64,000 bases of DNA, taken from positions 110,980,001 through 111,044,000 of the forward strand of contig OZ024743.1 of assembly GCA_964016885.1 (NCBI GenBank), given 5' to 3'. Of the stretch, positions 14,186 to 60,891 are shown in pieces. Both the position numbers and the translations under genes were made by a program. Source of the DNA: Eledone cirrhosa. Taxonomy: Eukaryota. Below the pieces are notes generated by a model that saw only the letters and a program-made list of their open reading frames with translations, was not told the origin of the DNA and did not search any database. Positions within the stretch are counted from its first letter, which is position 1; every line of letters starts with the position of its first letter.

Positions 14186-15272
14186 AATATATTTAGAAAC
14201 ACACAGATCCATGCGGACACACACATATACATGAATGCATCCGCACCCAACCGTGAGTTAAGGGTGCCAACTTCACCGATGTTGCTCAATGAATGACTGG
14301 GACAGAACAATCCGGTTGAACTAGACTGGACCAGTATCAGAGTTAAAAATACATTATGAAGAGAGAAGAAACATTTAGATATAATTAGTAATAAAATGTA
14401 TCAAACCTAAACTGCTCCTAGATTCCTCGACTACGTAGTTTCGTGGCATAAACAAAAACAATACATCATAAAGATATAGAGTCCTTGCGAGGTCTGCCGA
14501 CTTATCAAGAGGATATCTCATTTTACTAGTCTCGAGAACGCGTCTACACGACGTGAGAAAGAATCCCAAAAGGCGGAGGGGGAGACAGTCACGCGATATA
14601 ACGGTCGAGAAACAGAGCTAAGCCTCTTATAACCCTGAAGAAAATACCACGGAGGCGGAGGGGGTATTTATATCGAAGCCGCAGAAGAGGTGGTGAAGGA
14701 GGCGAGAAGTATGAGTAATGGCAGCTTTCCAGCAGTCCCCACACTTCAAAGATTGCTCGACCAGAGGGAGTTATTAACAATATATTTAGAAACACACAGA
14801 TACATGCGAGGACACACATATACATGAATGTATCCGCACCCAACCGTGAGTTAAGGGTGCCAACTTCACAGATGTTGCTCAATGAATGACTGGGACAGAC
14901 CAACCCGGTTGAACTAGACTGAACCAGTATCAGAGTTAAAAATACATTATGAAGAGAGAAGAAACATTTAGATATAATTAGTAATAAAATGTATCATACC
15001 TAAACTGCTCCTAGATTCCTCGACTACGTAGTTTCGTGGCATAAACAAAAACAATACATCATAAAGATATAGAGTCCTTGCGAGGTCTGCCGACTTATCA
15101 AGAGGATACCTCATTTTAGTAGTCTCAAGAACGCGTCTACACGTTTACATCTTTATGATGTATTGTTTTTGTTTATGCCACGAAACTACGTAGTCGAGGA
15201 ATCTAGGAGCAGTTTAGGTATGATACATTTTATTACTAATTATATCTAAATGTTTCTTCTCTCTTCATAATG
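14186..15272 (-). mobile_element. Family C hammerhead-bearing repeat: 593-bp unit, partial second direct copy, short inverted copy; flanked by (TA)n
   Basis: 14186-14548 is repeated at 14779-15142; 15143-15272 is the reverse complement of part of the unit. Confidence 0.85.
14421..14517 (-). ncRNA. Type I hammerhead ribozyme, U3-A8 core, long stem II insert (second copy 15014-15110)
   Basis: Minus strand: tcctc-TTGATAA-gtcggca...tgccac-GAAA-ctacgtag-TC-gagga. Confidence 0.7.
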
Positions 15273-15519
15273 TATATATATATATATATATATATATATA
15301 TATATATATATATATATATATATATATATATATATATAGAGAGAGAGAGAGAGAGAGAGAGAGAGAGAGAGAGAGAGAGAGAGTGAGTGAGAGAAATTAT
15401 ATACACAATTACATACATACATGTACGTACTTATATATATATTATATACATATATGTATATAACGGCGATGAATTAGTTTTGCTAGGTCTTTGATATGAA
15501 ATCGTGTGCCGAAACAAAT

Positions 15520-15631
15520 ATTATTATACTTGGGGAGGGTCATATGTGTGTAATAATATTGCCAGGATTAATAATTTGATTAATCCTGGCAATATTATTA
15601 CACAAATATGACCCACCCCAAGTATAACAAT
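15520..15631. repeat. Short fold-back element (arms ~50 bp); related single arms at 16618-16665, 49698-49738, 54609-54640
   Basis: ttatacttggggagggtcatat...aatattgccaggattaat followed by its reverse complement. Confidence 0.75.
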
Positions 15632-17095
15632 ATATATATATATATTTATACATATATATATATATATATATATATATATATATATATATATATATATATA
15701 TATATATATATATATATATATATATTATATATATACACACACACATGTATACATACATATGTACTTACATATATACATGCATACATATATATATATATAT
15801 ATATATATATATATATATATATATATATATATATAATGTATACATATGTATATATAATACATATATATGTGTGTATGTGTCTGGGTGAATGTGTGAGTGT
15901 ATGTGTGTGCATGTGTACGCAAGAAAGTAATTATAGTGGATGAATACACTATTACTTATGAGAAGGCGCGTGAGGATTTTAACGTCCAGTATAATGTTGA
16001 TTTTCGATAATCTGCTATCGCTCCCTCTCTCGTAAACAACGTGATTCTACCGCTATGCATAGATGCATGTGCAAAAGGTCTATGTACATCACGAGAGTAT
16101 CAATCCTTTTGCGGCATATGTGCCCCTGATAAGCCTGCATATGATCTGTATTCTTGTTCGTATTTTACTTATATTTTTGTCAATGTGATCAATTCTCTCA
16201 TTTCCCTAACTCCTGAAGATGCATAGGTGTAGTAATAGCATACAATCTATTAATTGTAAATACATGGTTCATTGTTTGTATGTATTAACGCTTCATTTTT
16301 TCTATGTATTAATGTGACTCATATATAGAAACAACTGTTGCGATTAAATTAACTACTATGATTTTACGGATTTTTAGTGAAATATATTTCTTTATTGAAA
16401 TATATACAAGGAGGATTAATCCTGTTTTAAAAGGTAATATTTGAAGATCTAGTTAAACTTTAAGAAGTTACCTACCTAGCTATGTGTGATTACACACTTT
16501 ACAAATTATCCCCTGTGATTGTTTCATGTGTTTATTTTAAATATATATATATAATATATATGTCAATCAATTTCTTGTGGATATTTATATATATATATAT
16601 ATATATATATATATATCTTGTTATACTTGGTGAGGGTCATATTTGCGTAATATTGCCAGAATTAATAACAGAACACACTCACTGTTTGGTTGGTTTTCGC
16701 TTCTCGCTGTCTTTTATATCTGCGATCTAACTTACTCGGTCCTCAATGTTGCCATATATATATATATAAGTTGAAATACAATGAAAACGAAATTTCATTT
16801 CTCACTCTTAGTTAATGTTACTTAATGTTACTAAGTTAACTTACTTAAATGTAAGTATGTATGTATACGTACATACATATATGTATACAGACGTACAGTA
16901 GCATGCATATATATATATATATATATATATATATATATATACATACAGGTACACATACATATATGCACGTATCAGTTTAGCGGACGCTTATTAAAACGCC
17001 GCTTTGTTTGTTTGTAAACAAACTGAACAGCCTGAATTTATGCCGTACGGTGTTAAGGCCACCACGTCACCTTTTTGTTCAACACTGACACAGGA

Positions 17096-17138
17096 ACGAT
17101 GTACTAGTTTCAAGCTTGTTAGCTATCATCAGCATCGT
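17096..17138 (-). ncRNA. Minimal type I hammerhead ribozyme (family B)
   Basis: Minus strand: acgatg-CTGATGA-tagct aaca agctt-GAAA-ctag-TA-catcgt. Confidence 0.8.
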
Positions 17139-58260: not shown

Positions 58261-58616
58261 CTCATGCATGTTTGCCTGTTCTTCTGGTGTCTATAGTACA
58301 ACAAACAAACACGCACCCACACCCACACACACACACACATAGACACACACACTCACACACACACATTTAAATATATATATATATATATATATATATATAT
58401 ATATATATAAATAGAGAGAGAGAGAGAGAGAGCGAGAGAGAGAGAGCGAGAGAGAGAGTGAGAAAAGTAGAGAAAGAGAGAGAAAAAGATGGAGATAGAG
58501 ATAGGTATGTACATGTATGTGAGTATTCATATTAAATTACCTATTGCCATACTGATGTTCACATTTAATATGAAAGTGCGCTGTTATTTCAAATAATTAA
58601 ATATATATATATATAT

Positions 58617-59942
58617 ATCAAAATAAGGACCCGAAGGCATGGTATAAATTTCCAATCATTTTAATCACGACACATGTTTCAATATGAGATAGATCGATCG
58701 TGTAGCCATGATCGATTATCACTGAACTCGTCAGGTGAAAATGAATTGTGTTCAATTCCTTGATATGAGGGAGAAAATTAACGGTGTTCACTCACAGAGT
58801 TTAGTCCCTCATATGAAGATCAAACAGTCAAATCACGCCGACTGCTATCGTCCTCAGTTAGGGTAACAAACTATCAAGTCTCTATCTCCCAATAGCTGTA
58901 AAAGACGCGGGATATCAATCAAATCTGTAGAATTACAGTCGGTCACAGTCAATGTGAGTGGGTACACACTCACTCACACACACACGACGCGTGGTCAATG
59001 AAAAAAAAATATATATACATATACCAACATAGTATAACTCTGTAGAACTAAATACGGTCTCAGTTAGTATGAGTACAACCACACTCACATACACCGTCAC
59101 GAAAGAAAAAATATAAATATACCAACTTAGTATTGAACGAAAGTTAGTTTACAAAACAACAAATGTTATATTGGTCAAATCACAATTTGAGGATGTAAAT
59201 CGGAAACATTTGGTCAACCGCAACCCTATACACACGCAAGTAAGTTCAGTTAAATGTTCTGCTATACTTGTATAGATTGAATTGTAACATCCGTATCTCC
59301 AAATAGTGTATGTTATGGTACATACACATCCGCATCGTCCAAAAAAGTGTGTTTAGGTATATACATATCCATGTGAAGAGCAAGTAGTCACCTCATATCG
59401 AACTCAGTATGTGCCGTTGTCGCATTGTGAATCTGACTCCCCAAATATGTGCGTGCAAGCAAGCGCTATGTAGGCCACCAAGGGGCCAACCCTACACACA
59501 GCGTCTATAGTTCTCCAGAGTTGATGCTATGTTGGTATATGTATATATATTGTTTTTCTTTGACCTCGCGTAGTGTGTGTGTGAGTGAGTGTGTACCTAC
59601 TCACATTAACTGTGACCGACTGTAATTCTACAGATTTGATTGATGTCCAGCGTCCTTTACATCTATTAGGAGATAGAGACTTGATAGTTTTATGACCCCA
59701 ACTGAGCACGATATCAGTCGCCGTGTTTTGACTGCTTGATTTTCATATGAGGGACTAAACTCTGTGAGTGAACACCGTTAATTTTCTCCCTCATATCAAG
59801 GATTTGAAAAAAATTCATTTTCACCTGTCGAGGTCAGTGATAATCGATCATGGCTACACGATCGATCTATCTCTTATTGAAATATGTCTCGTGATTAAAA
59901 TGATTGGGAATTTATACCATGCCTTTGGATCTTTATTTTGAT
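58617..59942. mobile_element. Family F: ~410-bp inverted arms (58617-59030 / 59525-59942) around a ~500-bp spacer
   Basis: Arms are diverged reverse complements; starts at (TA)n. Confidence 0.85.
58657..58743 (-). ncRNA. Type I hammerhead ribozyme with extended stem II (family F); partner 59816-59902 is mutated
   Basis: Minus strand: tcac-CTGACGA-gttcagtgata atcgatc atggctacac gatcgat ctatctcatatt-GAAA-catgtg-TC-gtga. Confidence 0.68.
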
Positions 59943-60128
59943 ACAAATACTCCGTTTTACATCATCTAGCTGTTCCCATAAATGGAATTGGAGATATACA
60001 AAAGCGTGGAGAAGTTGATATTGCTAACAAACATTTATTGGACCGTTTGACACAACCAATAATACAACTTACTATATATATATATATATATATATATATA
60101 TATATATATATATATATATATATATATA

Positions 60129-60891
60129 TGAATGTATATATAATGTATTTTGCAATACACTTTATGCTTAATTAAAAGCATTTCGAAGACCGTCTGCTAT
60201 TGTTTTAGAGTAGTGACAAACTCACTTACTTTAATCTCAGCAAACAAGGGGAGATAAACCGACAAGGCCTTGTTTCGCATTTATTGATGCTTATCAAGGC
60301 TAACTACTCCCTCCTGTCTACTGAGATCACTGATGTTATATTCTTATAGAATTCTAGTAAATAATCAGGAACTGATTATACAGAGCGATTGCCGGTCAGG
60401 CAGAAATTAAAAATTAGAATTGGAGCTCTGAAATAGCAATATATATATGAATGTATATATATAATGTATTTTGCAATACACTTTATGCTTAATTAAAAGC
60501 ATTTTGAAGACCGTCTGCTATTGTTTTAGAGTAGTGACAAACTCACTTATTTTAATCTCAGCAAACAAGGGGAGATAAGCGGACAAGGCCTTGTTTCGCA
60601 TTTATTGATGCTTATCAAGGCTAACAACTCCCTCCTGTCTGCTGAGATCACTGATGTTATATTCTTAGACAGGTGGGAGTAGTTAGCCTTGATAAGCATC
60701 AATAAATGCGAAACAAGGCCTTGTCGGCTTATCTCCCCTTGTTTGCTGAGATTAAAGTAAGTGAGTTTGTCACTACTCTAAAACAATAGCATACTTTCTT
60801 GAAAATGCTTTTAATTAAGCATAAAGTGTATTGCAAAATACATTATATATACATTCATATATATATTGCTATTTCAGAGCTCCAATTCTAA
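60129..60891. mobile_element. Family D hammerhead-bearing repeat: ~321-bp unit, partial direct copy, inverted copy, in (TA)n
   Basis: Motifs at 60249 and 60570 (321-bp spacing); inversion at ~60668. Confidence 0.88.
60675..60737 (+). ncRNA. Type I hammerhead ribozyme with U3-A8 core (family D); minus copies 60249-60311 and 60570-60632
   Basis: gggag tagtt agcc-TTGATAA-gcat caataa atgc-GAAA-caaggccttg-TC-ggct tat ctccc; predicted cleavage after C60725. Confidence 0.85.

What the first reader, a model, noticed from the sequence alone, without database searches (positions are those of the whole stretch)
14186..60891. A set of hammerhead-ribozyme, retrozyme-like elements targeted to (TA)n alongside Penelope retroelements
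Seen: at least five non-coding repeat families (A, B, C, D, F) plus the Penelope 3' end each carry a type I hammerhead layout (stem I / CUGANGA or UUGAUAA / stem II / GAAA / palindromic stem III / NUH). More than 15 copies occur in 64 kb, mostly embedded in (TA)n as tandem or inverted units. Established: Penelope-like element pLTRs carry minimal hammerheads, and metazoan non-LTR retrozymes are tandem hammerhead repeats that give small circular RNAs. Inference: these are non-autonomous elements processed to unit-length or circular RNA and re-inserted by a Penelope RT/GIY-YIG. The number of distinct families and core variants in one window is unusual, and I cannot tell whether they have been described.
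Basis: partly seen in the sequence, partly recalled or inferred. Interest (0 to 1): 0.9.

Follow-up and report, generated by a model that had tools for sequence, protein, structure and literature searches.

The report
Ribozyme repeats inserted as mirror pairs
Five short repeat families with hammerhead-ribozyme layouts, and the Penelope-like retrotransposons beside them, sit in TA repeats as head-to-head pairs with one long and one short end, likely because both cut DNA ends prime copying at two fixed sites of the same RNA, a testable answer to how these elements insert.

Summary
A strict hammerhead descriptor finds 12 hits in the window against 0.08 in shuffles. Five families (A, B, C, D, F; units about 320-590 nt) are non-coding tandems: new members of the known non-LTR retrozymes. 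Other hammerheads are 3' ends of Penelope-like elements (PLEs). The genome holds an intact, young PLE with Hydra-clade motifs. New here is a shared insertion rule. Each family has two 3' ends, short and long, and head-to-head pairs carry one of each: 82 of 83 scorable pairs; genome-wide, 3,452 short/tail against 23 short/short mini-pairs. The two arms share rare variants, stop at unlike places, and pass through the ribozyme cut site. Best reading: both target ends prime at two fixed sites on one RNA (0.6). Inverted copies, one-sided tails, TA targets and the retrozyme-PLE link are in print qualitatively; nine searches found no such rule. Self-cleavage, circles and expression are untested. This scan noted mini PLE palindromes before on another genome (e1-7858806). 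A U6-like promoter motif in A and B is a weaker lead (0.3).

The parts
14187..15272 (.). Family D head-to-head pair: minus arm 14187-15143 (long end at 14187; UUGAUAA hammerheads at -14508 and -15101, cuts 593 nt apart), plus arm 15146-15272 (short end)
16768..20690 (.). Family A pair, read as long end at 16768 and short end at 20690, junction at about 19601, (TA)n spacers between units; hammerheads at -17132, +19666, +20372; family B pair nested in one spacer (nesting inferred)
17409..19328 (.). Family B pair, 465-nt units: minus arm short end at 17409, plus arm long end at 19328; hammerheads at -17671, -18137 (GAAA mutated), +18533, +18998
18433..18494 (+). U6-like 11-mer, second inverted half and TATA-like box upstream of the B hammerhead; also folds as two RNA hairpins (same module in A at about 20284)
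20717..21988 (.). Family F pair, unit about 550 nt: short end at 20717, long end at 21988; UUGAAAA hammerheads at -21499 and -20942 (second damaged)
23345..24277 (.). Old inverted pair of PLE endonuclease fragments (K)
27300..27440 (+). Family J minimal hammerhead, damaged here (second copy 48699-48837, minus)
31155..36241 (.). Broken PLE head-to-head pair (RT C-terminus plus GIY-YIG, arms 90% alike): long end at about 31155, short end at 36241; hammerheads at -31477 and +36088
36241..37206 (.). Two G pairs (36241-36475 and 36506-37206): 3' end of another PLE (endonuclease C-terminus at 37131-36997, minus) with a CAGAAGA (U4A) hammerhead-like core
49773..49963 (.). Mini pair of the intact young PLE (P): short end at 49773, long end at 49963, 3' half of its hammerhead in both arms
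55844..56703 (.). Family A pair: long end at 55844, other arm ends in the TA spacer; hammerheads at -56220 and +56512 (stem III damaged)
58619..60072 (.). Family E pair: short end at 58619, long end at 60072; CUGACGA hammerhead at -58734, damaged copy at about +59826; not shown to be tandem
60143..60890 (.). Family C pair, 321-nt units: short end at 60143, long end at 60890; UUGAUAA hammerheads at -60297, -60618, +60689
61349..61684 (.). Family I pair just outside the finding: long end left, short end right; hammerhead at +61585

Best explanation
Families A, B, C, D and F are non-coding tandem repeats with type I hammerhead layouts that sit in (TA)n as head-to-head pairs with one short and one long end, and they are likely inserted by a Hydra-clade Penelope-like enzyme that would use both cut DNA ends as primers at two fixed sites of one RNA. 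Shown: layouts, two ends per family 50-160 nt apart, reciprocal use of them, TA flanks with 2-3 nt of matching UA at each site, shared variants between arms, unlike inner ends, copying through the ribozyme site, and an intact PLE that follows the same rule. Inferred: (1) the GIY-YIG cuts both strands of (TA)n; (2) one DNA end primes at the near site, the other at the far site across the tail; (3) both cDNAs run 5'-ward on the same RNA, the trailing one displacing the leading one, stop independently, and are joined head to head by short homologies; (4) near the capped 5' end of the PLE transcript both run off the same end and give the thousands of mini pairs; (5) for A-D the template has no fixed 5' end and is more likely a re-ligated circle (0.55) than an uncut multimer. 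Step odds: PLE-driven 0.9; two primers at two fixed sites 0.8; same molecule 0.65.
For: 82 of 83 scorable pairs reciprocal, out of 114 pairs (A 12/0, B 17/0, C 11/0, D 13/0, P 28/1, one A-P chimera); 15 of 15 in loci taken in genome order; 3,452 short/tail against 23 short/short mini pairs genome-wide, controls 0. Opposite arms closer to each other than to other insertions in 90 of 97; rare variants shared between arms P 77/121, A 24/62, B 41/85, C 3/27, D 4/26 against 1-4% in controls. Inner ends symmetric in only 10 of 81 pairs. Among 35 P pairs 11 have two mini arms, none is mixed, and 0 of 23 pairs with a long arm has a mini partner. 21 of 71 P inner ends lie at unit 1147-1156, at a TTAGT 29 nt after a TATA-like box; 13 of 17 G arms that stop at the like site carry G where the template has T. 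P frame of 784 codons with RWR, DKT, CxCX5C, CxxC, CxH, the Hydra features of PMC8557442. P and B pairs nested in A's internal TA spacer show a pre-existing target. B stem II pair is A-U in 20 loci and U-A in 10, never mismatched; the same double change is in contigs of two other organisms. PMC11167929 shows in vitro that a PLE protein cuts and extends both strands and starts at two internal sites.
Against: No homology links A-D to P's terminal repeat, so which PLE moves which family is open; the A-P chimera is a single case that a deletion could also explain. The end windows were set from the same data, and 31 of 114 pairs were set aside (edge-cut or other ends). Long/long mini pairs were not counted genome-wide; one long/long P pair was seen. 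Most loci were best hits, not random. Arm likeness could also come from two RNAs of one source locus or from later conversion; C and D share few variants. Core columns are only weakly more conserved than the rest (2/44 against 214/1731, p 0.08). Long arrays show patterned variants, so they grew at DNA level after insertion and do not prove rolling-circle copying. Some 'cap' G letters can be read from the other arm. PMC11167929 found no homology between target and start site, no strand difference in start site, and no need for ribozyme cleavage; in the 2026 preprint 8 of 9 predicted frog retrozymes did not cleave.
Confidence: 0.6

Rival explanations
1. Two RNAs, not one: an enzyme pair holds two transcripts (or two neighbouring units paired through the palindromic stem III), one primed at the near site and one at the far site.
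For: Both arms copy the same stretch, which on one molecule needs strand displacement; stem III is palindromic in most short families; the A-P chimera is still reciprocal; the short arm reaches further in 28 and the long arm in 43 of 81 pairs.
Against: Arms share rare variants and mini arms pair only with mini arms, which free pairing of RNAs would not give; P's stem III is not palindromic yet P obeys the rule.
Confidence: 0.2
2. Fold-back: one cDNA is made, snaps back and copies itself (self-priming, as proposed for rotifer Penelope in PMC3846280); the endonuclease trims the tail from one end.
For: Explains shared variants and a one-sided tail; junctions overlap by 2 nt or more in 60 of 116 cases and some lie in internal palindromes; mini pairs are near-symmetric.
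Against: 71 of 81 pairs have inner ends out of register by more than 15 nt, and in 28 the tailless arm is the one that reaches further; mini-pair junctions differ copy by copy.
Confidence: 0.1
3. The tandems are DNA-level satellites or palindromic elements; hammerheads are inert leftovers and arm likeness comes from conversion.
For: Arrays of 14-30 units show higher-order variant patterns; core conservation is weak; G has a U4A core in 20 of 20 loci.
Against: Fixed 3' ends, scattered inner ends and dispersal over many chromosomes are retrotransposon marks shared with an intact PLE; 109 distinct hammerhead strings with many different palindromic stems in 710 kb; compensatory stem change in B.
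Confidence: 0.07
4. Assembly artefact: inverted pairs come from fold-back reads.
For: Inverted duplications are a known long-read artefact (recalled).
Against: Flanks are not mirrored, the two ends differ by rule, old pairs differ by about 10%, and contigs of a separate run show TA loose ends at both B sites.
Confidence: 0.02

Closest known systems
Metazoan non-LTR retrozymes (Cervera and de la Pena 2020, PMC7229834; Li et al. 2026, bioRxiv 10.64898/2026.07.22.740005)
   Same: Non-coding tandem units of a few hundred nt, one type I hammerhead per unit, many families per genome, co-occurring with PLEs, proposed to be moved by PLEs.
   Different: In the parts read they are not described as head-to-head pairs with two fixed ends in (TA)n ('inverted' occurs 0 times in PMC7229834). 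Here the link to PLEs is the insertion footprint, not terminal-repeat homology. Cleavage and circles were shown there for some families, not here.
Hydra-clade PLEs and the general PLE layout (Craig et al. 2021, PMC8557442; Arkhipova et al. 2013, PMC3846280)
   Same: C-terminal GIY-YIG, RWK, DKT, CxCX5C, CxxC/CxH, hammerheads, (TA)n targets, an inverted truncated copy, a tail often at one end only.
   Different: Those papers state the tail as optional or often one-sided and call the mechanism undefined or self-priming; here it is a near-strict reciprocal rule with counts, tails of 50-160 nt rather than 30-40, and it extends to protein-free repeats.
Poseidon PAc of Anolis in vitro (Frangieh et al. 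2024, PMC11167929)
   Same: Both strands cut and extended, two internal start sites that bound the tail, copying through the hammerhead site.
   Different: They report no homology at the start site and no coupling of sites between strands; the genomic pairs here show 2-3 nt UA matches and strict pairing.
LINE-1 twin priming (recalled, no call)
   Same: Both target ends prime on one RNA and give an inversion.
   Different: In L1 the second site is variable and the two pieces do not overlap; here both sites are fixed and the arms overlap.
Newt satellite 2 with an snRNA-type promoter (Coats et al. 1994, seen only as cited in PMC2220036)
   Same: Hammerhead tandem with an internal snRNA-like promoter motif (families A, B).
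   Different: Here the motif matches this genome's U6/U6atac upstream element, not U2, with a spacing 4-5 nt shorter; promoter activity untested.

Membership tests
Non-LTR retrozyme | Type I hammerhead in each tandem unit | tested here: met
   A, B, C, D, F
Non-LTR retrozyme | Short non-coding tandem monomers, many dispersed copies | tested here: met
   units about 320-590 nt; no PLE protein match in them; 17,858 exact A/B motif hits
Non-LTR retrozyme | Self-cleavage as monomer or dimer | not testable with these tools
   only indirect: one compensatory pair in B
Non-LTR retrozyme | Expressed as linear and circular monomer RNA | not testable with these tools
   no usable RNA run
Non-LTR retrozyme | Homology to a PLE terminal repeat (found for 24 of 57 frog families in the preprint; 21 of their 22 matches are PLEs) | tested here: inconclusive
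   none between A-D and the PLE ends held; only 3 of many PLE families examined; D shares a short motif and spacing with P at the short site
Hydra-clade PLE (element P) | RWK, DKT, CxCX5C linker, CxxC and CxH, C-terminal GIY-YIG without internal CCHH | tested here: met
   motifs in 108-114 of 115 aligned relatives
Hydra-clade PLE (element P) | Hammerhead in the terminal repeat and (TA)n targets | tested here: met
   UUGAGAA core; 83 of 87 canonical P ends flanked by TA
Hydra-clade PLE (element P) | Placement in the RT phylogeny; element shorter than 3 kb in general | not tested
   no reference Hydra sequences held; P unit is 3,531 nt, longer than the usual size
PLE-type insertion | Inverted truncated copy and one-sided tail | tested here: met
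Canonical hammerhead (family G) | U4 in the core | tested here: not met
   CAGAAGA in 20 of 20 loci found with that query; stems fit, activity doubtful
snRNA-type internal promoter (A, B) | Upstream element and TATA with the spacing of this genome's U6 genes | tested here: inconclusive
   11-mer matches; spacing 42-43 against 46-48, counted by eye

The most novel reading that the evidence does not exclude
Penelope-like elements insert by coupled twin priming: one enzyme complex uses both ends of a cut (TA)n at two fixed sites that bracket the tail of a single RNA, which explains the inverted terminal repeat and one-sided tail in general; retrozymes hijack it as circles, and families A and B also carry a captured U6-type promoter inside the unit so that each copy drives the next.
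Probability: 0.4. Interest if true: 0.8.

Novelty: new variant of a known kind. Interest (0 to 1): 0.62.

Why it matters
How PLEs make inverted repeats, tails and microsatellite insertions is named as open in PMC8557442, and the 2026 preprint lists retrozyme mobilisation as unresolved. A near-strict one-short-one-long rule, shared by an intact PLE and by protein-free ribozyme repeats, limits the possible mechanisms and ties retrozymes to PLE enzymes by their footprint. The genome supplies the reagents for a direct test: an intact frame, a simple target, and mapped start sites. A telomerase-related RT that primes from both ends of a break is also of interest for gene-insertion tools.

Tried and rejected
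Expression: no RNA holder listed; the four runs laid are contigs of unknown kind, so nothing follows on cleavage or circles. A two-copy fold of P residues 1-480 gave no verdict. Pfam gave no family for P or the window PLE frames and PDB sequences none; the PLE call rests on motifs and relatives. Rfam gave no hammerhead match at E 0.01 in four loci holding the P, C, D, G and L066-type hammerheads. Linear cleaved monomer as template: rejected. A start-site hot spot in A-D at the place the U6-like motif predicts: not seen, but the sample favours full units. A common tail structure across families: none clear. Similarity of units to whole U6/U2 upstream regions beyond the 11-mer: none. Dfam and Repbase are not on hand; the families may be catalogued there. 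No supplements were read; they may hold related counts. Coats 1994 and Lunse 2017 are not held. The organism was not determined; 'octopus' and 'cephalopod' were guesses used as search words.
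Full report
Observation. The window is AT-rich with about 150 TA runs. Self-comparison shows several repeat families, most as inverted pairs. A strict type I hammerhead descriptor gives 12 hits against a mean of 0.08 in 100 shuffles; 25 copies with both core halves lie inside the finding, about half damaged. 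A, B, C, D and F are tandem and non-coding. G is the 3' end of a PLE, since an endonuclease C-terminus lies upstream of it. E, I and J were seen only as single arms and may also be PLE ends. Rfam scores only B, below cut-off.

Genome context. The window lies on C4 of a 3.0-Gb genome. Searches with A, B, C, D returned matches on many chromosomes, the best at 96-99% identity; one exact A/B motif occurs 17,858 times, control 0. In 153 merged stretches (710 kb) the descriptor finds 419 hits of 109 distinct strings with many different palindromic stem III sequences. In B one stem II pair is A-U in 20 loci and U-A in 10, never mismatched, a single event by descent; contigs of two other coded organisms carry the same double change. 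Core columns are only weakly more conserved than the rest (p 0.08). A protein search found a young PLE, P, with many open frames up to about 790 codons and a 3,531-nt unit. It has the motifs that PMC8557442 gives for the Hydra clade, a UUGAGAA hammerhead, and a mini pair in the window at 49773-49963.

The two-end rule. Every family ends at two places on its RNA: A 61 and 120, B 43-48 and 117, C 321 and 51-58, D 431 and 593, P 1210 and 1293. Each site has 2-3 nt of UA that match the target, and 268 of 281 such ends run into (TA)n. Of 114 head-to-head pairs, after removing duplicates with identical breakpoints, 83 had both ends at these sites; 82 carried one short and one long end. The 31 others were cut by a locus edge or ended elsewhere. 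In loci taken in genome order on C1 it was 15 of 15 scorable, of 20 pairs. Genome-wide patterns for P mini pairs gave 3,452 with a short end opposite an arm that runs into the tail and 23 with two short ends; in 40 fetched, the second arm ended at the long site before TA in 33, ran beyond it in 2 and was otherwise in 5. Long/long was not counted genome-wide. In 20 G loci found by their long end, an opposite arm was found in 12 and ended short in all 12. F, E, I and the window PLE show the same layout.

One template. Opposite arms are closer to each other than to other insertions in 90 of 97 cases and share rare variants far above control, strongly in P, A, B and weakly in C, D; in one B insertion every unit of both arms that covers the sites carries the same two variants. 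Inner ends are in register in only 10 of 81 pairs, and the tailless arm reaches further in 28, which a simple fold-back cannot give. P mini arms pair only with mini arms: 11 both, 0 mixed, 0 of 23 beside a long arm; the long pairs were fetched by their frame and the minis met by chance. Only 1 of 228 inner ends lies at a ribozyme cut. In P, 21 of 71 inner ends cluster at 1147-1156, at a TTAGT 29 nt after a TATA-like box; none of 76 mini arms measured passes 1146, though the pattern limited their length. G minis stop at a like TTAGT with G in place of T in 13 of 17; some of these G can be read from the other arm. I read this as the capped 5' end of the transcript (inference). A-D show no such stop, which fits circles or multimers. 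Long arrays carry patterned variants and so grew after insertion.

Mechanism. Most likely the PLE enzyme cuts both strands of (TA)n, the two DNA ends prime at the two sites around the tail of one RNA, both cDNAs run 5'-ward, and their ends are joined by short homologies (overlap of 2 nt or more in 60 of 116 junctions). The retrozymes supply the two sites without the protein. Which PLE serves which family is open: no homology to P was found; one A-P chimeric pair is reciprocal; a post hoc RCTC motif lies 6-12 nt after the short site in 7 of 11 families, at +9 in P, D and E, against 4.8% background. Rivals are two RNAs (0.2), fold-back (0.1), inert satellites (0.07), artefact (0.02).

Promoter lead. 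Three U6 genes and the best U6atac gene have an ATG(C/G)(A/T)AAT(T/G)AG element at -76 to -78 and TATA at -30; the U2 genes fetched and most other U6 hits lack it. A, B and a third family (L066) carry the same 11-mer 42-43 nt before a TATA-like box, upstream of the hammerhead. Against: spacing is 4-5 nt short, the motif is one arm of an RNA hairpin (z -5.6 in B, -0.6 in the window's A copy) with a compensating change in L066, a 7-copy A-like group lacks it, and T runs lie in the sense strand. Odds 0.3.

What is known. Read: bioRxiv 10.64898/2026.07.22.740005 parts 1-3 of 5; PMC11167929 parts 1-2 of 4; PMC4209133 parts 1-2 of 4; PMC7229834 abstract, passages and Discussion; passages of PMC8557442, PMC3846280, PMC3088659, PMC6765202, PMC2220036, PMC13282606. 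These describe retrozymes, their likely PLE origin, U3-A8 cores, opposite-strand hammerhead pairs, inverted copies, one-sided tails, TA targets and two start sites in vitro. Nine searches showed no paper with a reciprocal-end count or a coupled twin-priming model for PLEs or retrozymes; subscription papers, supplements and repeat databases were not seen. L1 twin priming is recalled.

Verdict. Real; new members of a known kind, with an insertion rule that is a new variant and makes an open question testable. Interest 0.62.

Noticed in passing
L163/L242, G000 C1 about 91,489,170-91,492,740: A 55-nt piece of the P frame is repeated about 64 times at the inner junction of a head-to-head pair, like repeated slippage by a telomerase-related RT; later expansion is also possible.
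   Followed up: partly
window 36295, 36321, 36572; L254-L273: Family G has a U4A hammerhead-like core in 20 of 20 loci, with an extended stem I; this variant was not in the passages read.
   Followed up: partly
L066 around its CUGACGA hammerhead: A further tandem family, not in the window, with the U6-like 11-mer and TATA box at the same spacing as A and B.
   Followed up: partly
L213, G000 C1 about 14,403,880-14,405,400: Chimeric pair: left arm family A (long end), right arm P (short end), joined directly.
   Followed up: partly
L194/L229 (C1 5.738-5.753 Mb) and L211 (C1 14.04 Mb): B arrays of about 30 and 14 units with alternating variant patterns: birth of a satellite from a retrozyme insertion.
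   Followed up: partly
window 8674-8860, 28115-28299, 39813-40003, 42710-42847, 46400-46576, 62742-62924: A dispersed repeat of about 186 nt, SINE-like, no hammerhead; one copy sits in the upstream region of tandem U6 genes; no tRNA called.
   Followed up: no
window 2401-3318 and 38899-39444: Reverse transcriptase fragments of other retroelements (Pfam RVT_1).
   Followed up: no
window 15440-15630, 16618-16755, 49688-49737: Family H: short TA-flanked arms with two ends like the others, but no hammerhead seen.
   Followed up: partly
window 29463-31120: A 1.65-kb interrupted (TA)n array next to the long end of the PLE pair; similar arrays flank many loci. Whether insertions lengthen TA tracts is untested.
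   Followed up: no
G000 C19 31.78-31.84 Mb and C3 307.35-307.46 Mb: Tandem arrays of U6 (about 1.8-kb period) and U2 (about 2.2-kb period) genes.
   Followed up: no
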